Positions 1,469 to 14,930 of a stretch of DNA of 14,930 nucleotides are shown here, piece after piece. A program made the translations under genes and the position numbers. The notes below the pieces were generated by a model that was given only the letters and a program-made list of their open reading frames with translations, searched no databases and was not told where the DNA came from. Every line of letters starts with the position of its first letter. The first letter of the stretch is position 1. Source of the stretch: Calditrichaceae bacterium (lineage in GTDB: Bacteria; Calditrichota; Calditrichia; Calditrichales; JBFXGD01); contig JBFXGD010000078.1 in the NCBI GenBank assembly GCA_050178385.1, positions 1-14,930 on the forward strand. The letters run 5' to 3'.

Positions 1469-3928
1469 CTAGCCAAGATATTTTGACATCTTCTGATAAA
1501 CAGCTTCTTTAAGAGATTCGTATGTATGATTTTCCGGATAAACCGGGCTGTGAAATTTCACAAATATCTTCTTAAAAGGTTTTGGAAAATGGCTGCCTGA
1601 CGGTAAAGCTTCAAACGCGCCTCTGATGGTGACCGGTACAACGGGAACATTCAATTCGCGGCTTAGAATGGCGAAGGTTTTCTTGAAAGAACCAATATGA
1701 CCGTCTTTTGAGCGTGTTCCTTCCGGAAAGATGATGATATTTTTACCCTTCTTTAAGGCGGCGGCCATCTTCTGCAGGGAAATTTTCAGGTCTTTATTGA
1801 TATCCATAATGATGACATTGTTCCGGTCAGCGATAAATTTGAGCCATTTTTTGCTGACGTGTTTTTCTTTCGCGTAAAAATAGGTTTTTTTCATCTGCTT
1901 GTTTTTGAGAAAAGAGACAACAAAAAGACCATCGAAAAAACTCTGGTGATTTGGCGCGAGTATAAATGGCGACTCCGGCAAATTCTCGGTGCCTTCACCT
2001 TTTAACCGGAAATATAAGTTCAGAAATACCCGTGAAGTGTTTTTGAACAGATTATGCGTGAACCAGCTTTTCGGCAGATTAATATCCAGTTTTTCCCGCA
2101 GAATATCGCCCCAGTTTACCGTTTCCACATCGATTTTAACTTTTTCGTCACGGACGACGAGCGCCAGTTTTTCTATAGTCGGGTACTGCATAAACTCTTC
2201 TTCTTTGATATCTACGCCAAAGGTAGAATTCAGGAATACCTGTAAACTTACTTTTCCAAGGGAGTCAAGACCAAGATCGATTTCTATATGATCGTCATGA
2301 TAGACTTCACGGCCTGCTTCTTCATTGAGAAATTGCTTAATGATTTTGTATTCTTCGAAATCCGGTTCTTCTCCGCGCTGTCTCTCACTGCGCGTATCTT
2401 CAGACAATGATGGAAGCATAAAACGCTTGACTTTGCCAAGCCTTGTCTTCGGAAGTTCCTCTTTTAGAATACTGAAATTGGTGATTCTTTTGTATGGTGA
2501 AACCTGGGAATTATATTTATTGATAATTTCCTGCCTGAAAATTTCTTCAATATTTAATAAACCATCCTCCTGAATCCTGGCGAAGTCGGGATAAATTGCC
2601 GCCTGAAGTGTATCACCTTTCAGGAATACGCCGATTTCGTTGATATATGCGGACATGTTTAGGATTTTGAACTCAACTTCCACCGGATTTACATTCTTGC
2701 CATTGGGGAGAATAATAATTTCTTTTTTACGACCGGTAATGACCAGATGACCGTCTTTGTCCAATCTTCCCAGATCCCCTGTGTAAAGCCATCCATCCTT
2801 TAATATTTCGTCAGTCTCCTCTTTCCGGTTATAATATCCCTGCATCACGTTTCTGCCCTTGGCGGTAATTTCGCCTTCATCGGTGATGCGGATTTCATTG
2901 GTCATCATCCGTTCGCCGGCGGATCCTATTTTCCATCTGCCGGGACGGGTAAAGGAGATCATCGGCGCGGCTTCTGTCATGCCGTAACCGGGCAGTATTT
3001 CGAAACCCAGAGTCTTGTAGTCCCTGGCGACTTCATCATCGATGGCGGCTCCACCGCATACCATAAAGTGGACATTACCGCCGAATTTTTGTTGTACGGT
3101 TTTGAACAACACCTTTGAGAATGCCCGTGAATCAATTTTTTCCGCCAGCTTGAACAGGGTTTTGGTAACCGCGCTTTTATTAATTTTGTCCATTATGCCT
3201 TTTCTTATAAGATTATAAAATCGCGGTACGCCGATGATAATGGCGATGGCATTGTTCTGCAGGGTTTCCATGATGTCTTCCGCCGCCATGGAAGGGGCGA
3301 AAGCGATCGTTGAACCCACAGAAAGCGGCGCGATCATCGAACCAATCAGCGGGAATGTGTGATGCAAAGGCAATAACACCATCACGTTTCTGTCAGATGT
3401 GTAAATATTGACATAATCAGAAACAGCTTCAACATTTGCCAGAATATTATCAAAAGAAAGCATGACGCCTTTCGGACTTCCGGTTGTTCCCGATGTATAA
3501 ATAATTAACGCTGTTTTGTCTTTATCGGGTTCGGGAAATACGGAGTTTACCGAAGGCGCGTTACGGATATCGATATCTTCAAATTTTAGAACTTTTTGGT
3601 CATACGTTACCGTTTGCAGCGCGCTCTCAACCGTTTTGTAAGTTTCATTGGAGCAGAAAATAATTTCAGGTTTACAGTCATTTAATATATACGCGACTTC
3701 ATCGGAAGTAGACATATAATCGATTGGAACGGCGATACAATCATTTTTCCAGGACGCGTAAAACGCATATACCCAGTCAAGGCTGTTTTCGGCGAAAATT
3801 GCGACCTTTTTTGTTTTGGCGGATTCAAATAATCCGGAGTAATAATCAACATTTTTTACAAGCGTTTCGTAACTGATTTTCAGGTCTTTCCAGACGAGGG
3901 CCGTTTTACCGTGATCTTTTAGAAACAA
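1469..3928 (-). CDS. Tri-domain long-chain fatty acid AMP-ligase / acyl carrier protein / PlsC-type acyltransferase (Aas-like), 819 aa
   Basis: AMP-binding motifs YTSGTTGSPKG, GYGMTE, GWLYTGDLG and GRKKEII. Phosphopantetheine site DLGLDSL (Ser codon at 2261-2263). Acyltransferase motifs NHQSFFD (HX4D) and FPEGTRS. Start revised to TTG at 3928 (AAGGAG 6 nt upstream) because the ORF-track extension to 4009 overlaps the promoter. Confidence 0.9.
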   Translation of the reverse strand: MFLKDHGKTALVWKDLKISYETLVKNVDYYSGLFESAKTKKVAIFAENSLDWVYAFYASWKNDCIAVPIDYMSTSDEVAYILNDCKPEIIFCSNETYKTVESALQTVTYDQKVLKFEDIDIRNAPSVNSVFPEPDKDKTALIIYTSGTTGSPKGVMLSFDNILANVEAVSDYVNIYTSDRNVMVLLPLHHTFPLIGSMIAPLSVGSTIAFAPSMAAEDIMETLQNNAIAIIIGVPRFYNLIRKGIMDKINKSAVTKTLFKLAEKIDSRAFSKVLFKTVQQKFGGNVHFMVCGGAAIDDEVARDYKTLGFEILPGYGMTEAAPMISFTRPGRWKIGSAGERMMTNEIRITDEGEITAKGRNVMQGYYNRKEETDEILKDGWLYTGDLGRLDKDGHLVITGRKKEIIILPNGKNVNPVEVEFKILNMSAYINEIGVFLKGDTLQAAIYPDFARIQEDGLLNIEEIFRQEIINKYNSQVSPYKRITNFSILKEELPKTRLGKVKRFMLPSLSEDTRSERQRGEEPDFEEYKIIKQFLNEEAGREVYHDDHIEIDLGLDSLGKVSLQVFLNSTFGVDIKEEEFMQYPTIEKLALVVRDEKVKIDVETVNWGDILREKLDINLPKSWFTHNLFKNTSRVFLNLYFRLKGEGTENLPESPFILAPNHQSFFDGLFVVSFLKNKQMKKTYFYAKEKHVSKKWLKFIADRNNVIIMDINKDLKISLQKMAAALKKGKNIIIFPEGTRSKDGHIGSFKKTFAILSRELNVPVVPVTIRGAFEALPSGSHFPKPFKKIFVKFHSPVYPENHTYESLKEAVYQKMSKYLG

Positions 3929-3959
3929 GCTGTTCTCCTTATCTATATGCTTAGCTGTA

Positions 3960-3988
3960 ATTATAATGATAATATTGCATTTTGTAAA
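3960..3988 (-). promoter_or_regulatory. sigma70-type promoter of the acyl-ligase fusion gene
   Basis: Minus strand reads TTTACA (3988-3983), 17 bp, TATAAT (3965-3960), about 30 nt upstream of the TTG start. Confidence 0.75.
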
Positions 3989-4137
3989 GGCTAAAGTGCC
4001 TGAAAACAAAGTATAAAATCAAAAATTGCCGTATGAAAGATGGTTTAAATCAATTAGTAATACTGTAGGTTATGACGCAGAAACCAGAACCTGAAAAACA
4101 TATTTTTTATCTCATACCTTCATAAAAAATTATTTTA

Positions 4138-4166
4138 TTGACAATGATAAAGGTATGTTTTATACT
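4138..4166 (+). promoter_or_regulatory. Near-consensus sigma70 promoter of the operon
   Basis: TTGACA (4138-4143), 17 bp, TATACT (4161-4166), with an AT-rich UP-element-like tract upstream. Confidence 0.85.
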
Positions 4167-4174
4167 TGATTTAA

Positions 4175-4188
4175 GTTGTACGGACAAC
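4175..4188. promoter_or_regulatory. Putative GntR/HutC-family operator
   Basis: Palindrome GTTGT-ACGG-ACAAC just downstream of the predicted +1. It resembles HutC-subfamily sites (TTGTA-NN-ACAA type), and a GntR-UTRA gene lies in the operon. Confidence 0.75.
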
Positions 4189-4205
4189 CGCACAACCGCA
4201 CAACC
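4184..4205 (+). repeat. 8-bp tandem repeat ACAACCGC x2.75
   Basis: acaaccgc acaaccgc acaacc, overlapping the right arm of the operator palindrome. Confidence 0.85.
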
Positions 4206-4226
4206 AGAATTTATCTGGAGAATGGT

Positions 4227-5621
4227 ATGAAATTTAATCGACTTGGCAGTGTAGTTACGGCCATTCTGATTATACCCGCCGTCTTGCTCTGCTCACAAAA
4301 CTCACTTATCCCCGCGGATACCCTGACCATCGGATTGATAGGCGATCAGACCGGATCATATGACCTGTCGGCGACCTATCAAATCATGGAAAAGGCGGTT
4401 GAACAGATGGATGCTAAAAATCCCGATCTCGTACTGCATGTAGGCGATCTGGTTGAAAGCATCAGAGGCATCAACTCCTTTGAAGATTATAAATCGAATT
4501 TTGACTATGCTGTGAACATACTCAATCGTCTGAATGCGCCCTGGTATCTCACCGCGGGTGATCATGATGTGGCACCACCTGTTTATCAGGCCGGATCATG
4601 TGACAGATCAAGGGAAGAATGGTTCCAGAAACTGTGTTCAGCCGCCGGTTTGCCCATGGAAAAGCAACTATATTACAGTTTCGACTTTAATAATTATCAT
4701 TTTATTTCCCTTTACTCCCTTGAAAATTTACATACCGATCCCAGATGGGGTCCCATTTTTTTGAATCAGTTGTCTGATGAACAAATCGCCTGGTTAAAGA
4801 ACGATCTGGAAGCTCACAAAAACGCGCCGGGGATCATAGTCCTTGTACATCAGCCTCACTGGTATGTGTGGTCAAACTGGTCGGAAATTCACCAAATACT
4901 CAGACAATATCCGGTTGCGGCGGTCATTGCAGGACATTTTCATTATGATCAGGATGACGGTATGATCGATCAGATAAGATACCTGGTGATGGGCGCCACG
5001 GGAGGCGTCGTTAAAAATATGGATCCCAATTCAGGCGGATCATCTCAATTCGCTACTCTTAAGCTGTATAAGAACAAGGTTACCCATATCAATCTTTTTG
5101 ATCTTTCATCGGGTGAATCTCTTGAACTGACGCCCCGCAGGACCATGGACCGGCTTCAGGCGCTCTCCTGTATGCTTGATAATTTGTTTATGGATGAAAA
5201 TATAGGCCGTAAGAACGGACAGCTTTTTACCATCACAGGCGAAGGCCAGTACAGCTCATTGAAACAAATCGGCCTGGAATCACTGGCGAATCCGATCGAT
5301 TTGCCGATTCGAATTAAGATAAGCACGGACCGGGATATACTTCAAAATCCGCGCTGGATCCGTTCAGGGAAGTCAATCCCGGATTCTTCTTTTATCGAAT
5401 TGGAACCCGGTGAGAGAACTGGCTGGGCAAATTATACCAGTGTGGGGCAATGGGCTAAACCGGATCCTTTATGGGTGTGTGATCTTACCGGTAATCCGGA
5501 GAGATTAAAGGATCTTACCGGTATTGCCATAACGATAAAGATTTCATTCACTGATCAGGGTGAACGCTGGGTTGAATCAACTGCCCGTTTTCCCGTAAAA
5601 AAAATTGAAGACAATTTATAG
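4227..5621 (+). CDS. Secreted/periplasmic calcineurin-like metallophosphoesterase with a C-terminal domain of unknown function, 464 aa
   Basis: ATG at 4227 follows GGAG. Signal-peptide-like N-terminus MKFNRLGSVVTAILIIPAVLLCSQ. Motifs GDQTG, HVGDLVE, AGDHD, VHQPH and AGHFH. The ORF-track TTG at 4176 lies within the operator. Confidence 0.85.
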   Translation: MKFNRLGSVVTAILIIPAVLLCSQNSLIPADTLTIGLIGDQTGSYDLSATYQIMEKAVEQMDAKNPDLVLHVGDLVESIRGINSFEDYKSNFDYAVNILNRLNAPWYLTAGDHDVAPPVYQAGSCDRSREEWFQKLCSAAGLPMEKQLYYSFDFNNYHFISLYSLENLHTDPRWGPIFLNQLSDEQIAWLKNDLEAHKNAPGIIVLVHQPHWYVWSNWSEIHQILRQYPVAAVIAGHFHYDQDDGMIDQIRYLVMGATGGVVKNMDPNSGGSSQFATLKLYKNKVTHINLFDLSSGESLELTPRRTMDRLQALSCMLDNLFMDENIGRKNGQLFTITGEGQYSSLKQIGLESLANPIDLPIRIKISTDRDILQNPRWIRSGKSIPDSSFIELEPGERTGWANYTSVGQWAKPDPLWVCDLTGNPERLKDLTGIAITIKISFTDQGERWVESTARFPVKKIEDNL

Positions 5622-5651: not shown

Positions 5652-6428
5652 ATGGCAGTAAACGTTACAGAAATTGAAAAATCAAGTGTAATACCAATTT
5701 ATCACCAGTTGTACTCCATTCTGCTCGATTTAATACACAGCGAAGTTTATAAGCCTTATGACCGGCTTCCTTCGGAAAATGAACTCACCGCGCAATATAA
5801 AATCAGCCGTCAAACGGCTCAAAAAGCTTTAAATGTCCTTGTTGAACAGGGAATTGCTCACCGGATGCAGGGGAAGGGTACTTTTGTGAGCGATAAGACG
5901 ATCACTTACAGCATCACTGCCTCTTTGAGTTATTCCACGGAAATAATCGGATTAAATAAAGTTCCCCGAAGCGAGTTAATTCATGCAAAGGAAATTGAAA
6001 CATCAGGTCTTATCTCAAGGAATCTCTCGCTGGACGAAGGATCTCCCGTTTACAGCATTCAAAGGGTTCGTTATGTGGATGATATTCCAATGGCTTTGCA
6101 GACTTCCTATATACCGAAATATCTCGTACCCGGACTGATCGATAAAAAATTTGAAGAAGGCTCATTGTTTAAAACGATACGCAAAGAATACCAGCTGGAA
6201 ATCGGTCACGCCACTGAATATTTGAAAGCGGTAAAATGCGATCAATATGAATCCAAAAGGCTCTGCATTATGGAAGGAGACGCTATTCTGCTCCTTGAAA
6301 GAATCACCCGCTTAAAGGACGGTAGAATTCTTGAATTTGTAAGGTCCGTCCTGAGGGGCGACAAAAGCAAGATATCAATCGATCTGTCAACCTATACTAA
6401 CGGGGAGAGGAAAACTGTTGGAAGATAA
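5652..6428 (+). CDS. GntR-family transcriptional regulator, HutC subfamily (wHTH + UTRA)
   Basis: PIYHQL...RLPSENELTAQYKISRQTAQKALNVLVEQG...QGKGTFV, followed by a UTRA-like domain (RVRYVDDIPM...SLFKTI...LLLERIT...EFVRSVLRGD). Confidence 0.93.
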   Translation: MAVNVTEIEKSSVIPIYHQLYSILLDLIHSEVYKPYDRLPSENELTAQYKISRQTAQKALNVLVEQGIAHRMQGKGTFVSDKTITYSITASLSYSTEIIGLNKVPRSELIHAKEIETSGLISRNLSLDEGSPVYSIQRVRYVDDIPMALQTSYIPKYLVPGLIDKKFEEGSLFKTIRKEYQLEIGHATEYLKAVKCDQYESKRLCIMEGDAILLLERITRLKDGRILEFVRSVLRGDKSKISIDLSTYTNGERKTVGR

Positions 6429-6939
6429 ACGCGGACATTTCAACACCGGAACGGGCAAAAAAGAATATTTTACCCCGAAAAGAATCGCGCGCATTTCCAT
6501 CCTGATTGCCATTAGCGCGGTGGGTTCATTAATAAAGATTCCAAGCCCCACAGGAACAGTCTCTCTTGACGCGTGTACCGGGTATTTCTCGGCAGTGACA
6601 TTCGGCTGGATTGAAGGATCGCTTGTGGGTGGCCTCGGGCATATGCTGTCGGCTTTTACAACCGGTTTTCCACTCGGCCTTCCGGTACATCTCTATATCG
6701 CGTTTCAGATGGCTATCTGGGTTTCGGTATTCTCAATCATCGCCCGTAAAATTAATCTGATCCTTGCTGTCATTGCGGCCATCTTCTTAAATGGAGTGGT
6801 TTCATCCTATTTAATAATTCCGTTTGGCGGTATGGGTATGGCGACCGCCCTTTTAATTCCGCTGATTGTGGGCTCGGCGGTTAATATCATTATTGCCGCT
6901 CTGGCTTATAGAATTGTTCAAAAGAGTAATTTTGTATGA
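6418..6939 (+). CDS. cblT: ECF transporter S component, CblT-like (alpha-ribazole transporter family)
   Basis: 173 aa hydrophobic protein. IKIPSPTGTVSLD...GHMLSAFTTGFPLGLPVHL matches the CblT signature as I recall it (GH.LSA...GFPL.LP.HL). It sits directly upstream of a cblS-like gene. TTG start follows GGAGAGG. Confidence 0.8.
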   Translation: MEDKRGHFNTGTGKKEYFTPKRIARISILIAISAVGSLIKIPSPTGTVSLDACTGYFSAVTFGWIEGSLVGGLGHMLSAFTTGFPLGLPVHLYIAFQMAIWVSVFSIIARKINLILAVIAAIFLNGVVSSYLIIPFGGMGMATALLIPLIVGSAVNIIIAALAYRIVQKSNFV

Positions 6940-7763
6940 AAACAGAACTATTACCTGAACTGGATATGCTTTATTCTCATCTTAAAAAGGGTGAAAATAA
7001 CTTTAAGCATAGCCAGGTAAGAGATCTCACCAAAATTGGTCTGGGGAACGGCTATTCTCTTATAGTGGCGGTAGATTCGGACGGCGGGATCGGCTCGCGT
7101 CCGGGAGATTTTGTCAAAACGGATGATTATCTGGTTGGCAGATTTGCCATGCGTGTGCCTTTGTTGGAGATTCTGGCTTCCGGCGCGCTCCCGCTGGCCG
7201 CGTTTGATACATTGACTTTGCCCATGGATGATCACGGACTGAAAATTATCAAAGGCATAAAAGATGAATTAATGGAAGCGGGACTCGGAAAGGATTTTCC
7301 GCTGTCCGGGAGCACGGAAGACAATGTACCGACAAAGGAAACCGGTATCGGCACCATGGTGATTGGTATCGTTCATGACAGAGATTTTCGTCCGGGAACC
7401 GGCGTCGCGGGTGACGTGGTTGTTTGTCTCGGAATACCGAAATCTGCTCCCGGGGACAAAGTTACTATTGATGATGCTCAGATTGTGAAATTGAAAGAAA
7501 TAAGGCAAATATCGGAAAAATCTGATATTCATGACATTCTTCCGGTGGGATCTCATGGGGTTTTATATGAAGCTATGAAAATGGCGGACTCTGCCGGATT
7601 AAACTTTAGGGTGCTGGAAAATTCAGGAATTGATCTTAAAAAATCCGGAGGCCCGGGTACCTGTATCATTCTATCCTGTAAAGTAATGATGGGAAAAGCA
7701 CTCCGGAAGTTAACAGGCGCTCCTGTGACAAAAATCGGACAGCTGGAAAAAAGAAGTATCTGA
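6936..7763 (+). CDS. cblS: CblS-like alpha-ribazole kinase (PurM/AIR-synthase-related fold)
   Basis: QVRDLT, DSDGGIG, RVPLLEILASGA, GIKDEL, GSTEDN, PVGSHG.LYEA and KSGGPGTC follow, in order, the motifs I recall from Listeria CblS (QVRDLS, RVALLEMLASGA, GLKDEL, GSTEEN, PVGSKGMAYEA, KTAGPAS). ATGA overlap with cblT. Confidence 0.8.
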   Translation: MKTELLPELDMLYSHLKKGENNFKHSQVRDLTKIGLGNGYSLIVAVDSDGGIGSRPGDFVKTDDYLVGRFAMRVPLLEILASGALPLAAFDTLTLPMDDHGLKIIKGIKDELMEAGLGKDFPLSGSTEDNVPTKETGIGTMVIGIVHDRDFRPGTGVAGDVVVCLGIPKSAPGDKVTIDDAQIVKLKEIRQISEKSDIHDILPVGSHGVLYEAMKMADSAGLNFRVLENSGIDLKKSGGPGTCIILSCKVMMGKALRKLTGAPVTKIGQLEKRSI

Positions 7764-7805: not shown

Positions 7806-9536
7806 TTGAATTTAATCTTTGAAAATGTCAATTACCAGTACCCAAAAGGTAAGACGCTTGCGCTCAAAGATATCAATTTAGCCACAGGCGGAGATCGTGT
7901 AATTGCGTTGATGGGACGGACCGGATCGGGCAAGACAACGTTGTTAAGCGCAATGAACGGGATTATACCTCAGTTTCATGACGGTAATTTTGACGGAAAA
8001 GTTCTGCTGAATGAGGACTCTACATCCGATCTGCCTATTCAGCAGCTTGTCCGCAAGGTGGGTCTTGTTCTACAGGACCCGGAGACACAGATTTTTGGAT
8101 TAACTGTTGAAAAAGACATCGCCTTCGGCCCAAGTAATTTGAATTTTCCAAAAGAAAAAATAAATGAAATTGTAAAAATGTCCGCTAGAGCCGTTAATCT
8201 GGAATCATTTATGGAAAGGTCTCCCGATCAGCTCTCCGGGGGCGAAAAACAACGGCTCGCCATTGCCGGCATACTTGCTCTTGAGTCACCGGTGCTGGTT
8301 CTGGATGAACCAACTTCTGAACTGGATCCGGAAGGCGCGGAAACAGTCAATCAGGCATTACAAAATTTGAAGAACGGGGGACACCGGCTGATCATTTTCA
8401 GCACCCATAATCCCGATAATGTAATCGGTTCAGCGGATGAAATATGGGTCATGGAAAGCGGTGAAATTAAATATATAGGCGATCCCGGAAATTTTTTCAG
8501 TCATATGGATTTACCGGGAATTTACGGATTGCAAATTCCGGAGGTAACCGATCTTTTTAGAAAAATGCATTACCTCAATTGGTACAAAAAAGATGAACTG
8601 CCTGTGACTCTGGAATCGGCCGTTTCGGATTTTGAAAAAATTCTGAAAAAAGTAAAAAATATTAATGTGCCGCGTGCCAAATATCTTATGACGCGGTCTG
8701 CCGGATCGCAGAACAGAATTATTGAGATAGACAGATTAAGTCACCATTACACCAGCGGACAGCTTGCGGTGGACAATGTGTCGCTTACGATTAATTCGCA
8801 GCAGATTGTCGCAATCCTTGGTAAAAACGGCGCGGGCAAAACCACGCTGGTCAAACATCTGATCGGGTTGCTAAGACCCACTCAGGGAAGGGTGTTGATC
8901 AAAGGCCGGGACATCGCGGATCTCAGAATCGAGGAGATAAGCCGTGATGTGGGTTTTGTGTTTCAGAACCCGGATCATCAGATATTTTCACCGTCAATCT
9001 ATGAAGAAATTGAATATGGTCTGCTTAATCATGGATTTGATAAAGTGTCAGCAAAAGAAAAAATTCAGAATGCTCTGGAACTGACAGGACTTACCGGTAA
9101 GGAGCATTTACACCCGTTCAGCCTGAGTAAAGGAGAGAGACAAAAAATTGCCATGGCATCCGTCCTGGCGGTGGAGCCTGAAATAATTGTAATCGATGAG
9201 CCCACTACCGGTCTTGACTGGAGAGATTCCATAGCTCTCATGGAAGAAATACGCAAACTAAAGGAAAAAGGCCATACGATCATTATGATTACACACAACC
9301 TGCGTCTGGCGGCTGATTATGCGGATAAAGTGATTCTATTGCAGAATGGTAAACTGATTTGTGAAGGAGAAACCCACTCCATATTGAATGATATGGAGTT
9401 GCTGAAGAAAACCTCATTGAGGCCTTTGCAGATCTCGCTGTTGGTTCACAGGATGAAAAAATACGGAATACCACAGGATATCATCACGATAAGCGAATTA
9501 ATTGATTATATGAAATTTGTAATACAGGAAAACTAG
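7806..9536 (+). CDS. ECF transporter fused double ATPase (EcfA-EcfA')
   Basis: Two ABC cassettes: GRTGSGKT / LQDPETQ / LSGGEKQR / LDEPT and GKNGAGKT / FQNPDHQ / LSKGERQK / IDEPT. The Q-helix PxxQ is typical of ECF ATPases. Confidence 0.92.
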   Translation: MNLIFENVNYQYPKGKTLALKDINLATGGDRVIALMGRTGSGKTTLLSAMNGIIPQFHDGNFDGKVLLNEDSTSDLPIQQLVRKVGLVLQDPETQIFGLTVEKDIAFGPSNLNFPKEKINEIVKMSARAVNLESFMERSPDQLSGGEKQRLAIAGILALESPVLVLDEPTSELDPEGAETVNQALQNLKNGGHRLIIFSTHNPDNVIGSADEIWVMESGEIKYIGDPGNFFSHMDLPGIYGLQIPEVTDLFRKMHYLNWYKKDELPVTLESAVSDFEKILKKVKNINVPRAKYLMTRSAGSQNRIIEIDRLSHHYTSGQLAVDNVSLTINSQQIVAILGKNGAGKTTLVKHLIGLLRPTQGRVLIKGRDIADLRIEEISRDVGFVFQNPDHQIFSPSIYEEIEYGLLNHGFDKVSAKEKIQNALELTGLTGKEHLHPFSLSKGERQKIAMASVLAVEPEIIVIDEPTTGLDWRDSIALMEEIRKLKEKGHTIIMITHNLRLAADYADKVILLQNGKLICEGETHSILNDMELLKKTSLRPLQISLLVHRMKKYGIPQDIITISELIDYMKFVIQEN

Positions 9537-10337
9537 ATGTTTTTAGAATACCAAAAGGGGAATTCGATTCTGCATAGACTCGATATCAGGACAAAGGGAC
9601 TGGGGTTTATCGTTGTCGTCATTGCTGCTTTTTTGTTTACAGCACCCGAGTATAATTTAATCATATTAATTCTGTGCCTGGCATTAATGAGACACATCCG
9701 GATGCCGGCGAGCAGGCTGGAGATGATGCTTAAGCCCCTGATCCCTATCCTGATTTTAATAATACTTTTCTCAGCGGTTTCTTACAGTCCTGAATATTTT
9801 CAGAAACCTATGTCTCAAAAAGTCTTGTTCTCAGCAGGATTTATGACATGCACGGTTGGCGGCATTCTGCTGGGTATTTCTCTAAGCATCAGAATACTGA
9901 CCATGGTAATCGCCTCGACGCTACTGACTTATTCAACACCGATTGATGACTTTATACACATACTCAGGCTTATGCGAGTTTCGCATAAAATTGCCTTTGT
10001 TCTCACAACAGGAATGAGATTTATACCAACCATGGACAAAAAATCACGACAAATTATAGAGGCGCAAAGAACCAGAGGCGCTAATTTCCATGAGGGCGGC
10101 CTGGTCCGTAAAATCAAAGCTTATATTCCGGTAATGGTCCCGATGATCGTCGAATCGCTCCGCATGTCGGAAAACCTGGCTATGGCGATGCTGAACCGCG
10201 GGTTCGGCGCGTCAAAAAACTGGACGGTTATGGACGAGCTGAATCCGGGTATAAAAGATGCCGTTATTACGATTTCTTTACTGTTTATTATCACTCTGTT
10301 GATTTATTTAAAAATTTTAGGATACGGAAAAATCTGA
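9537..10337 (+). CDS. ecfT: ECF transporter transmembrane T component
   Basis: Y..GNSILHRLDIRTK N-terminus, RFIPT motif, and two coupling Arg motifs (EAQRTRG, AMLNRGF). Starts immediately after the ATPase stop (TAGATG). Confidence 0.92.
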   Translation: MFLEYQKGNSILHRLDIRTKGLGFIVVVIAAFLFTAPEYNLIILILCLALMRHIRMPASRLEMMLKPLIPILILIILFSAVSYSPEYFQKPMSQKVLFSAGFMTCTVGGILLGISLSIRILTMVIASTLLTYSTPIDDFIHILRLMRVSHKIAFVLTTGMRFIPTMDKKSRQIIEAQRTRGANFHEGGLVRKIKAYIPVMVPMIVESLRMSENLAMAMLNRGFGASKNWTVMDELNPGIKDAVITISLLFIITLLIYLKILGYGKI

Positions 10338-13268: not shown

Positions 13269-14930
13269 ATGTATTCAAAAATGATCAAATACTGTTTTAC
13301 AGTTTGCGCCTTTCTTCTTATGGGAAATGAGGATCTGAACGCGCAGGACAGCGGGAAAATCTATGGGTATATACTGGACAGAAATACGGGAAAACCTATA
13401 GAACAGGCCTGTGTCGTGCTTGATCCGGATTCAATCGGCGCAGAAACTAATTTCGACGGCATTTATTTTATTCCGAAGATACCCTCGGGCAGGTATCAGC
13501 TGCGAGTTGAGATGATCGGTTACGAAACCATTTCAGAGCATTCCGTTACAATTCAGCCGAATGAATCCAGGGAAATGAATTTCTTTCTAAAGCCGATTAT
13601 CTTAACCGGCTCTGATGAGATTGTTGTCACCGCGACCCGTGGAAAATCAATGACGAATGAAGTTCCGGCATCGGTGGATGTCATAAGTATGGAAAAGATA
13701 CAGCTTCTTGCGCCGCAGAATATGGCGGAAGTGCTTGAAAATGTACAGGGTGTATTTATTAAGGATTACGGAGGCATCGGTGGGAATAAGACCATCTCAC
13801 TAAGAGGCTCCAGTTCGGAACAGGTGCTTGTTCTCCTGGACGGTCAGAGATTAAATGACGCGCAGAGCGGACAGGTTGATTTCAGCGCAATCTCTTTGGA
13901 AGGAGTTGAGAAAATTGAGGTGGTAAGGGGAGGTAATTCAGCACTTTACGGGGCTGACGCGGTGGGCGGCGTCATAAATATCATTACGAGTAAAAAACAC
14001 GACAGGGAAGGCATATCAGGTTCGTTAAAAATGATGAACGGTTCTTTTCAATCTTTATCCGTAGAACCCGCGCTTAAAGTCAGATATGATAATTTCGGCG
14101 GATCACTTAGCTTTAAATATCTCAGCAGCGAAGGAGACTTTTCTTATAAAAATCTTGAAGGCCGGGATGAAAAGCTCGACAATAATGACATTACCGCACA
14201 GGATCTGTTCGCGCGTTTTTACTATCTGTTTGACGACTCCCTTTTTCAAAGAACGCTGAATTTTTCATACAAATATTATGACTCCGAGAGAGGCAGCCCC
14301 GGGAATATTGAACTTCCGTATCGTTCTGCCCGTCTCTGGAACACAAGCCAGCAATTTAATACGACATTTTCCGGAAAAGTTTTTAATCTGATGAACGATC
14401 TTCAGGTTCAGGCCTACGCGCATACAGGTAATTCAAGATATAAAAATGACGAAGGCCTTGTTCTGATAGACAGCCGTTACGAAAACGGCACCTACGGTCT
14501 GGAAACACAGATGCAATCCATATTTACCGGCGGACAAATGCTCACATACGGCGCGGGTTACCGAAACGATTGGATGAACAGCGAAGAGTTTGCCGAAGAC
14601 CATACAAGGGATTCCTATTATATTTTTCTGCAAAATGAGACCGAAATTAAGATGAAAAACCATTATCCGCTGAAATCATTGACATTTGTGCCTGCCGTGC
14701 GGCTGGATGGATTTTCTGATTTCGGGTCACACGTATCTCCGAAAATCGGCGGAGTGATAAACTTTGGACACTCCTGGCAAACAGCTCTCAAATGGAACGC
14801 CGGTCTCAGTTACCGGGCGCCTAATTTTAACGAATTGTACTGGCCGGAAGACGCGTGGACAAAAGGAAATTCTGATCTGGAAGCGGAACACGGCTATGAC
14901 TGGGATGCGGGGATACGGCTTCGCTACCCG
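13269..14930 (+). CDS. TonB-dependent receptor, BtuB-like, with carboxypeptidase-regulatory-like N-terminal domain (copy 2; 3'-truncated by the window edge, not in ORF track)
   Basis: Manual translation is open from ATG 13269 to the end: MYSKMIKYCFTVCAFLLMGNEDLNAQDSGKIYGYILDRNTGKPIEQA...IGYET..., TonB box DEIVVTA (13614-13634), plug IKDYGGIGGNKTISLRGSSSEQVLVLLDG, IEVVRGGNSALYGADAVGGVINIIT, ...SYRAPNFNELYWPEDAWTKGNSDLEAE. Confidence 0.9.
   Translation, partial: MYSKMIKYCFTVCAFLLMGNEDLNAQDSGKIYGYILDRNTGKPIEQACVVLDPDSIGAETNFDGIYFIPKIPSGRYQLRVEMIGYETISEHSVTIQPNESREMNFFLKPIILTGSDEIVVTATRGKSMTNEVPASVDVISMEKIQLLAPQNMAEVLENVQGVFIKDYGGIGGNKTISLRGSSSEQVLVLLDGQRLNDAQSGQVDFSAISLEGVEKIEVVRGGNSALYGADAVGGVINIITSKKHDREGISGSLKMMNGSFQSLSVEPALKVRYDNFGGSLSFKYLSSEGDFSYKNLEGRDEKLDNNDITAQDLFARFYYLFDDSLFQRTLNFSYKYYDSERGSPGNIELPYRSARLWNTSQQFNTTFSGKVFNLMNDLQVQAYAHTGNSRYKNDEGLVLIDSRYENGTYGLETQMQSIFTGGQMLTYGAGYRNDWMNSEEFAEDHTRDSYYIFLQNETEIKMKNHYPLKSLTFVPAVRLDGFSDFGSHVSPKIGGVINFGHSWQTALKWNAGLSYRAPNFNELYWPEDAWTKGNSDLEAEHGYDWDAGIRLRYP

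What the first reader, a model, noticed from the sequence alone, without database searches (positions are those of the whole stretch)
4138..4226. B12-type transport genes controlled by a repressor operator rather than a cobalamin riboswitch
Seen: the leader from the predicted +1 (about 4173) to the ATG at 4227 is only about 55 nt, and no downstream gap exceeds 42 nt, so there is no room for a cobalamin riboswitch. A HutC-type palindrome GTTGTACGGACAAC sits at +1 instead. Established: btuB and cob salvage genes are usually switched off by B12 riboswitches, whereas HutC/UTRA repressors are usually released by a pathway intermediate. Inference: the operon is substrate-induced, which fits catabolism better than vitamin scavenging. 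The effector may be alpha-ribazole-5'-P, which would be a novel ligand for a UTRA sensor.
Basis: partly seen in the sequence, partly recalled or inferred. Interest (0 to 1): 0.7.

Follow-up and report, generated by a model that had tools for sequence, protein, structure and literature searches.

The report
Repressor-controlled B12-fragment breakdown operon
A set of vitamin-B12-type uptake genes in sediment bacteria sits behind a conserved repressor site instead of the usual B12 riboswitch, together with enzymes that look built to break down the nucleoside parts of B12-like molecules rather than to assemble the vitamin.

Summary
The 14-bp palindrome (4175-4188) covers the predicted start of a 54-nt leader, and Rfam finds no cobalamin riboswitch here or serving the operon in 16 further operon loci. 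The site is a real conserved operator: present in 46 of 46 related loci whose operon start is assembled, with an extra half-site 8 bp downstream, and its -4/+4 base changes with residue 53 of the operon's own GntR/UTRA protein. The regulator keeps NagR's phosphate-binding residues. The operon (secreted phosphoesterase, GntR, CblT-like ECF, CblS-like kinase, YegU-type hydrolase, two BtuB-like receptors, BtuG/BtuF-like proteins, a second inosine-type SAH hydrolase, nucleoside transporter, deaminase) occurs in 27 genomes with no CobS found, so alpha-ribazole phosphate cannot be built into B12 there. Best reading: an inducible import-phosphorylate-hydrolyse pathway, like E. coli yegTUVW, for cobamide-derived alpha-nucleosides (about 0.5). 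The effector is unproven; the purine-handling genes make an adenine-type alpha-nucleotide as likely as alpha-ribazole-5'-P. Most hosts need B12 and many show no second BtuB, so induced vitamin uptake remains a live rival.

The parts
4138..4143 (+). -35 hexamer TTGACA
   Evidence: a TTGAC/TTGCC/TGGAC element lies 30-37 nt before the operator in 42 of 46 loci
4161..4166 (+). -10 hexamer TATACT
   Evidence: identical in the same-genus genome G001
4175..4188 (.). GntR/HutC-type operator, 14-bp imperfect palindrome GTTGTACGGACAAC over the predicted start site
4192..4204 (+). two further ACAAC half-sites at 8-bp period; the first is conserved across loci
4227..5621 (+). calcineurin-like metallophosphoesterase with a hydrophobic N-terminus (probably exported)
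   Evidence: PF00149; in 26 of 28 long GntR loci; export signal read from the sequence
5652..6428 (+). GntR/UTRA (HutC subfamily) regulator, inferred cognate repressor
6418..6939 (+). ECF S component, CblT-like
   Evidence: PF12822; 29% to the S component of a cblT-cblS-cobS-cobC operon
6936..7763 (+). PurM/AIRS-fold kinase, CblS (alpha-ribazole kinase)-like
   Evidence: 35%, E 6e-45 to the CblS homologue of that operon; Atlas neighbours auto-named alpha-ribazole kinase
7806..9536 (+). fused ECF ATPase pair
   Evidence: TIGR04520/04521 above cut-off
9537..10337 (+). ECF T component
   Evidence: PF02361
10351..11352 (+). ADP-ribosylglycohydrolase-fold protein of the YegU subfamily; proposed alpha-nucleotide hydrolase
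   Evidence: 36% to E. coli YegU; model pLDDT 96.5, ARH fold; residues
11372..13261 (+). TonB-dependent receptor 1, BtuB-like
   Evidence: best PDB hits are BtuB proteins; TIGR01779 147 bits, cut-off 600
13269..14930 (+). TonB-dependent receptor 2, cut by the contig end; operon continues on contig C141 (beta-propeller lipoprotein, BtuF-like protein, SAH/SIH hydrolase, CNT transporter, deaminase)

Best explanation
The palindrome is the operator of the operon's own GntR/UTRA repressor (inferred, about 0.9). A dimer sits on 4175-4188, a further DNA-binding domain on the half-site 8 bp downstream, and together they block the sigma-70-type promoter; binding of a phosphorylated pathway intermediate releases it (inferred from NagR, about 0.75). 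The operon is a catabolic 'import, phosphorylate, hydrolyse' module for cobamide-derived nucleosides (about 0.5): two BtuB-like receptors with BtuG/BtuF-like helpers bring the substrate into the periplasm; the exported phosphoesterase frees the alpha-nucleoside; the CblT-like ECF or the CNT transporter imports it; the CblS-like kinase makes the alpha-nucleoside 5'-phosphate, which is the likely inducer; the YegU-type hydrolase splits it into base and ribose-5-phosphate; the deaminase and a dedicated inosine-type SAH hydrolase process an adenine/adenosyl part (purine lower ligand of pseudo-B12 or the adenosyl upper ligand). Shown: sequence anatomy, conservation, covariation, gene linkage, absence of assembly genes in the assemblies searched. 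Inferred: every activity, the substrate and the effector.
For: Operator in 46 of 46 loci with an assembled operon start; also at the start of the rearranged locus L100; no site scoring above 8 in 13 loci that have the kinase-hydrolase pair without GntR. In NagR, Arg48 reads G-4 and Arg38 reads G-5 (PMC4333415, passages): here Arg53 goes with G-4/C+4 in 29 of 29 distinct sites, the Arg38 position is Asn/His/Trp and -5 is T in 29 of 29, and the nine loci with Lys53 carry A-4/T+4. NagR phosphate ligands T90/R133/R135/S165 map to S95 (S/T 68 of 68), R138 (62 of 68), R140 and S171 (68 of 68); sugar contacts differ (E145 to Q150, Y228 to L234). CobS 0, CobT 0 above cut-off, CbiZ 0 of 27 operon genomes. 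Hydrolase follows the kinase in 83 of 86 scorable loci; the three exceptions are Firmicutes whose genomes have CobS. YegU-type hydrolases sit beside a PfkB kinase or a PTS importer in 6 of 6 records examined. The ARH fold is alpha-selective and ARH3 cleaves the alpha-N-glycosidic bond of alpha-NAD+ (PMC7050489, PMC8319183, passages); the window's enzyme keeps the metal ligands in 67 of 67 homologues. The SAH hydrolase is a second paralogue with the inosine-preferring HxExK motif in 27 of 27 copies. A separate riboswitch-btuB-propeller-BtuF locus exists in the same genus, with its btuB orthologue in this genome.
Against: No binding, expression or enzyme data. Receptors and binding protein fall far below curated BtuB/BtuF cut-offs, and their tree does not place them with riboswitch-led receptors. 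22 of 26 operon genomes need B12, 17 of 26 show no cobalamin riboswitch (50 candidates scored per genome, incomplete MAGs), and for most the operon's receptors were the best hits to a riboswitch-led receptor. The CblT-like ECF is in only 7 of 28 long loci. The Arg/Lys covariation is one clade, so one event, and both site sets were collected by patterns that fix part of the motif. The hydrolase lacks the Glu41 equivalent that ARH3 needs (Ser in 66 of 67). No known reaction links an SAH hydrolase to cobamides. Cobamides are trace compounds, a poor carbon source (own knowledge).
Confidence: 0.5

Rival explanations
1. Same repressor and same catabolic logic, but the substrate is another alpha-riboside, not B12-derived (for example a ribosyl-adenosine or phosphoribosyl fragment from ADP-ribosylated material or from archaeal cofactors). 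The B12-like families are repurposed paralogues.
For: All B12 similarities are 22-35% identity and below curated cut-offs; receptors 1 and 2 form their own sister clades (support 0.96); deaminase, SAH hydrolase and CNT are in 21, 24 and 19 of 28 long loci while CblT is in 7; the YegU module recurs with unrelated kinases and importers.
Against: Five unrelated families (CblT, CblS, BtuB, propeller, BtuF) all have B12-pathway proteins as their nearest characterised relatives, and the riboswitch-led receptor of the same genus scores no higher on TIGR01779 (152 bits) than these two (147 and 172).
Confidence: 0.27
2. Induced vitamin scavenging: the operon imports intact cobamide for the cell's own enzymes; free alpha-ribazole is a cue that B12 is near, the kinase makes the inducer and the hydrolase resets it.
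For: Methylmalonyl-CoA mutase in 22 of 26 operon genomes, mutase and MetH in this genome; no riboswitch found in 17 of 26; few orthologues of a second receptor (4 of 26).
Against: The operon has no BtuCD-type permease in the window or on C141; this genus has a separate riboswitch-led btuB locus; in L013 a riboswitch-led receptor and the operon diverge from one intergenic region; phosphoesterase, deaminase and extra SAH hydrolase are left unexplained.
Confidence: 0.17
3. The site is bound by another factor, or the GntR activates, or B12 lowers expression.
For: No experiment; GntR is only the nearest candidate.
Against: Site overlaps the -10/+1 region in every locus, covaries with the GntR recognition helix, and is missing where GntR is missing.
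Confidence: 0.06

Closest known systems
E. coli yegTUV / GgaR (YegW)
   Same: GntR/UTRA repressor with a single local target; transporter + kinase + ARH-fold protein; hydrolase 36% identical and shares the GP[ST] and TNG motifs.
   Different: Kinase is CblS-like, not PfkB; importers are BtuB/ECF/CNT-type; regulator only 26% over 145 residues; GgaR's reported effector is ADP-glucose (PMC10819704, passages); functions of yegTUV are themselves unknown.
CblT-CblS alpha-ribazole salvage of Firmicutes
   Same: Adjacent S component and PurM-fold kinase, 29% and 35% identical.
   Different: There they sit with cobS and cobC to build B12; here no CobS/CobT was found and a hydrolase follows the kinase.
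NagR (YvoA) and DasR with dre sites
   Same: Closest solved regulators (E 4.5e-33); 14-bp operator with G-7 and G-4 read by wing and Arg; phosphate pocket kept.
   Different: No Arg38 contact (T at -5), an extra half-site at 8 bp, changed sugar contacts, one target rather than a regulon.
Riboswitch-controlled btuB-btuG-btuF uptake loci
   Same: Receptor, surface beta-propeller and BtuF-like protein in the same order.
   Different: No riboswitch, two receptors, no BtuCD permease, linked hydrolases.
Cobamide remodelling (CbiR, CbiZ)
   Same: CbiR frees alpha-ribazole from AdoCbl (PMC7733943, passages), the step proposed for the phosphoesterase.
   Different: CbiR is an AP-endonuclease-2 family enzyme beside cobS/cobT/cobU; here the enzyme is calcineurin-like, CbiZ is absent and nothing to rebuild the loop was found.
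DadD/SIH-hydrolase route (Methanocaldococcus, Thermotoga)
   Same: Deaminase plus HxExK hydrolase.
   Different: Deaminase is of the adenosine/adenine deaminase family; hydrolase is an accessory second copy with an invariant Lys83 where housekeeping copies have Gln.

Membership tests
GntR/HutC (UTRA) repressor-operator system | GntR winged helix plus UTRA domain | tested here: met
   PF00392 and PF07702
GntR/HutC (UTRA) repressor-operator system | palindromic operator with G at -4 read by the recognition-helix Arg, overlapping the promoter | tested here: met
   (sequence-level only)
GntR/HutC (UTRA) repressor-operator system | binding to the site and release by a ligand | not testable with these tools
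   needs gel shift or reporter
Cobalamin riboswitch regulon | RF00174-clan aptamer in the leader | tested here: not met
   none in the window or serving the operon in 16 further loci
CblT-CblS salvage for B12 assembly | CblT and CblS homologues | tested here: met
CblT-CblS salvage for B12 assembly | CobS/CobU/CobC to use alpha-ribazole phosphate | tested here: not met
   CobS 0 of 27; strong CobU hits only outside the 27, weak partial hits in 7 of them; MAGs incomplete
BtuB / BtuF equivalogs | curated HMM cut-off | tested here: not met
   TIGR01779 147 and 172 vs 600; BtuF 72 vs 234
BtuB / BtuF equivalogs | clade with riboswitch-led receptors | tested here: inconclusive
   deep nodes unresolved
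ADP-ribosylhydrolases (DraG/ARH1/ARH3) | ARH fold and binuclear metal ligands | tested here: met
   TM 0.76-0.83; D19, T63, D64, D65, D282, D284, T285 in 67 of 67
ADP-ribosylhydrolases (DraG/ARH1/ARH3) | Glu-flap glutamate and adenine pocket (ARH3 Glu41, Tyr149-Gly150) | tested here: not met
   Ser26, Asp131, Thr132 by alignment; no superposition was possible
YegU subfamily | GP[ST] and TNG motifs, kinase or PTS next door | tested here: met
SIH-preferring hydrolases | HxExK motif | tested here: met
   27 of 27 operon copies vs HxTxE in 14 of 14 housekeeping copies

The most novel reading that the evidence does not exclude
A dedicated, inducible pathway that dismantles coenzyme B12 and pseudo-B12 for their nucleoside parts: the first ARH-fold enzyme acting as an alpha-nucleotide N-glycosidase, an SAH-hydrolase paralogue acting on the adenosyl ligand, and a UTRA repressor that senses an alpha-nucleotide. 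It would name a biological sink for cobamides in anoxic sediments and digesters and suggest what E. coli YegU and its many relatives do.
Probability: 0.3. Interest if true: 0.88.

Novelty: new variant of a known kind. Interest (0 to 1): 0.62.

Why it matters
How cobamides are destroyed in nature is, to my knowledge, largely open, and the widespread YegU-type hydrolases have no known substrate. This operon gives a cheap, direct test of both: a kinase whose nearest characterised relative makes alpha-ribazole-5'-phosphate sits next to an alpha-selective hydrolase fold in genomes where no cobamide synthase was found. The operator is defined to the base, so the effector can be screened in vitro. 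Six paper searches returned no description of this operon, of CblS with an ADP-ribosylglycohydrolase, or of GntR control of CblT/CblS; the library lacks most subscription journals, and regulon databases were not searchable.

Tried and rejected
Kinase-hydrolase fusion: L042 has one 597-aa frame with both Pfam domains, but the kinase's conserved C-terminal motif is replaced by out-of-frame-looking sequence and a search for longer forms found none; not used as evidence. 'No cobalamin riboswitch in this genome' is an assembly break: contig C235 ends about 65 nt before its btuB, short of where G001 has the riboswitch. 'The operon's AhcY is the only one' was dropped: G001 and most operon genomes have a second, housekeeping copy. 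A riboswitch before cblT in Halanaerobiaceae L045 was suspected but not found; the one in L050 lies downstream of cobS-cobC-cblT-cblS. A wider regulon: no second convincing site in this genome; in five others, hits with one mismatch were at control level. Single-protein locus search found nothing; an alignment was needed. Receptor tree unresolved. No RNA holder listed. No earlier scan findings. Gray and Escalante-Semerena 2010 was not held; CblS/CblT functions are taken from passages of PMC6722938 and PMC6167548. No complex or second structure prediction was run.

Full report
Observation. The window is a whole contig (C78) of a 3.9-Mb genome, 94% complete. Its closest related locus (83% identity in the kinase) is titled Calditrichaceae. 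The promoter-like pair TTGACA-17-TATACT lies at 4138-4166, the palindrome GTTGTACGGACAAC at 4175-4188 and the ATG at 4227. Rfam gave no cobalamin hit in the window. The largest gap between genes in the window is 42 nt. The short motif by itself is common, so I tested it by conservation.

The operon. Nine co-directional genes follow: metallophosphoesterase, GntR/UTRA regulator, ECF S component, AIRS-fold protein, ECF ATPases, ECF T, ADP-ribosylglycohydrolase-fold protein and two TonB-dependent receptors. In the same-genus genome G001 and on this genome's contig C141 it goes on with a beta-propeller lipoprotein, a BtuF-like binding protein, an SAH hydrolase, a CNT nucleoside transporter and a deaminase. 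An alignment of kinase homologues fetched 44 genome loci and 60 metagenome loci, partly duplicates, titled Calditrichota, Neomarinimicrobiota/Fidelibacterota, Ignavibacteria, Bacteroidota, Acidobacteria and a few Firmicutes. Among 28 GntR-bearing loci with at least 9.5 kb downstream, the hydrolase is in 28, phosphoesterase and both receptors in 26, propeller 25, SAH hydrolase 24, deaminase 21, CNT 19, binding protein 16 and the S component 7; distal genes are undercounted because flanks end at 10 kb. Only 5 of 86 genomes of the phylum have a close hydrolase orthologue, so the operon is patchy.

The operator is real. G001 keeps promoter and palindrome although a CRISPR array ends about 45 nt upstream of the -35. 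Of 56 loci that start with the phosphoesterase, 46 have the site and the other 10 are cut inside that gene; these are 28 distinct 24-mers. A -35-like element lies 30-33 nt before the site in 37 loci, 36-37 nt in 5, and was not found in 4. The next in-frame ATG is 32-52 nt from the site start in 35 of 46; in the other 11 my script found a later ATG or none. The 22 seed sites were chosen by a TTGT-N4-ACAA pattern, so I rebuilt the matrix without the window's clade: it ranks 4175 first in the genome, 34.6 against 21.4. Thirteen loci with the kinase-hydrolase pair but no GntR have no site (best scores below 8). All 29 distinct sites carry CA at +12/+13, a third half-site 8 bp after the right one. 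Rfam found no riboswitch serving the operon in 16 further loci; the only hit, in L013, is on the other strand and leads a divergent receptor gene.

The cognate regulator. NagR is the closest solved relative. In NagR, Arg48 reads G-4, Arg38 reads G-5 and the wing contacts G-7 (PMC4333415, passages). Here the Arg48 position is Arg53 in 59 of 68 proteins and their sites have G-4 and C+4; the Arg38 position is Asn, His or Trp and -5 is always T. Nine proteins of one Ignavibacteria-type clade have Lys53, and each of their promoters carries a site with A-4 and T+4 and the same 8-bp repeat. This is one evolutionary event, and T+4 was fixed by my pattern, but A-4 was not. NagR's phosphate ligands are kept (S95, R138, R140, S171) and its sugar contacts are changed (Q150 in 68 of 68, Leu/Val/Met at 234). 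I infer a repressor that senses a phosphorylated ligand other than an amino sugar.

What the pathway is. The kinase and S component match the cblS and cblT homologues of a Lactiplantibacillus cblT-cblS-cobS-cobC operon (35% and 29%). CobS was found in 6 of 39 genomes, none of them among the 27 with this operon layout (for two of the 27 the fetched piece starts at the S component). CobT and CbiZ were not found there either; CobU gave only weak partial hits. These are incomplete MAGs, but the blank is uniform. The hydrolase follows the kinase in 83 of 86 scorable loci (18 more were too short, one had no kinase match); the three exceptions are Firmicutes with CobS. It is a YegU-subfamily protein (36%), and such proteins sat beside a PfkB kinase or a PTS importer in all six records I opened, which suggests they act on a phosphorylated glycoside. 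The model has the ARH fold and all metal ligands; by alignment the ARH3 Glu41, Tyr149 and Gly150 positions are Ser26, Asp131 and Thr132, with invariant His51 and His54. ARH1 and ARH3 are alpha-selective, ARH3 cleaves alpha-NAD+, and the nicotinamide displaces Glu41 (PMC7050489, PMC8319183, passages). An alpha-nucleotide hydrolase is therefore plausible but inferred; loss of the glutamate could also mean another chemistry. The SAH hydrolase is a second copy beside a housekeeping one in most operon genomes and has the inosine-preferring HxExK motif (PMC10978960, passages) in 27 of 27 copies. The deaminase's best PDB hit is 3OU8, labelled adenosine deaminase and recalled by me as an adenine deaminase. 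Receptor, propeller and binding protein hit BtuB, a chain of the BtuB1 complex 8BLW (the name BtuG is recalled) and BtuF in the PDB, below curated cut-offs. Adenosylcobamides are the one class I know that joins an alpha-riboside, a phosphodiester, a 5'-linked adenosine and a need for such receptors; that argument is mine, not a result.

Against. This genome has methylmalonyl-CoA mutase and MetH and 22 of 26 other operon genomes have the mutase. A riboswitch-led btuB locus exists in G001 and its receptor orthologue here, but only 9 of 26 operon genomes showed a cobalamin riboswitch and 4 of 26 an orthologue of one riboswitch-led receptor. The receptor tree is unresolved. An apparent kinase-hydrolase fusion looks like a frameshift. 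No expression data were listed.

Comparison and verdict. The system works like E. coli yegTUV/GgaR (PMC10819704, part 3 of 7 and passages) built from CblT/CblS and btu-type parts; it is not a member of the riboswitch regulon or of CblTS salvage for B12 assembly. Six searches found no description of it (listings and abstract starts only, apart from the nine papers read in passages; no supplements were opened, and supplementary regulon tables could bear on the novelty claim). Operator and cognate repressor about 0.9; cobamide-derived substrate with catabolic role about 0.5; alpha-ribazole-5'-P as the effector about 0.3. Novelty: new variant of a known kind, interest 0.62, with a 0.3 chance of a new cobamide-dismantling pathway.

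Noticed in passing
L005 427-6410 (G001): A Cas9-Cas1-Cas2 locus with a CRISPR array ends about 45 nt before the operon's -35; in the window the same position holds a divergent acyl-CoA synthetase/acyltransferase gene.
   Followed up: no
window 1469-4009 (-): 846-aa fusion of AMP-binding, phosphopantetheine-attachment and acyltransferase domains (Aas-like), with its own strong promoter-like site at 3988-3960.
   Followed up: no
L013 5300-7860: A cobalamin-riboswitch-led TonB receptor and the GntR operon diverge from one intergenic region: both control modes side by side.
   Followed up: partly
L008, L011, L015, L016, L025, L028, L060: Acidobacteria keep only the kinase-hydrolase pair, without GntR or operator, often among TPR and FG-GAP/ASPIC genes; two of these genomes have CobS elsewhere.
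   Followed up: partly
Atlas neighbours of window 6936-7760: Bathyarchaeota clusters carry a CblS-like domain fused to a ribbon-helix-helix domain, a possible kinase-regulator fusion.
   Followed up: no
L188, L191: YegU-type hydrolases directly behind beta-glucoside-type PTS importers and PRD antiterminators in Listeria and Enterococcus, suggesting a phospho-glycoside hydrolase role for the subfamily.
   Followed up: partly
L006 2594-3622 and homologues: The operon deaminase has a conserved WxWKN and FFSPWDF signature unlike the solved adenosine/adenine deaminases.
   Followed up: partly
L039 14431-16260, L075 10753-12597: In Ignavibacteria the phosphoesterase is longer, carries a CBM9-like domain and lies after the hydrolase; GntR is the first gene.
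   Followed up: partly
G041:C49 8851-8870: A second exact match to the operator pattern in this genome, with a one-mismatch match 120 nt away.
   Followed up: no
L042 9986-11779: Kinase and hydrolase in one frame, probably through a frameshift in the kinase's last third.
   Followed up: yes
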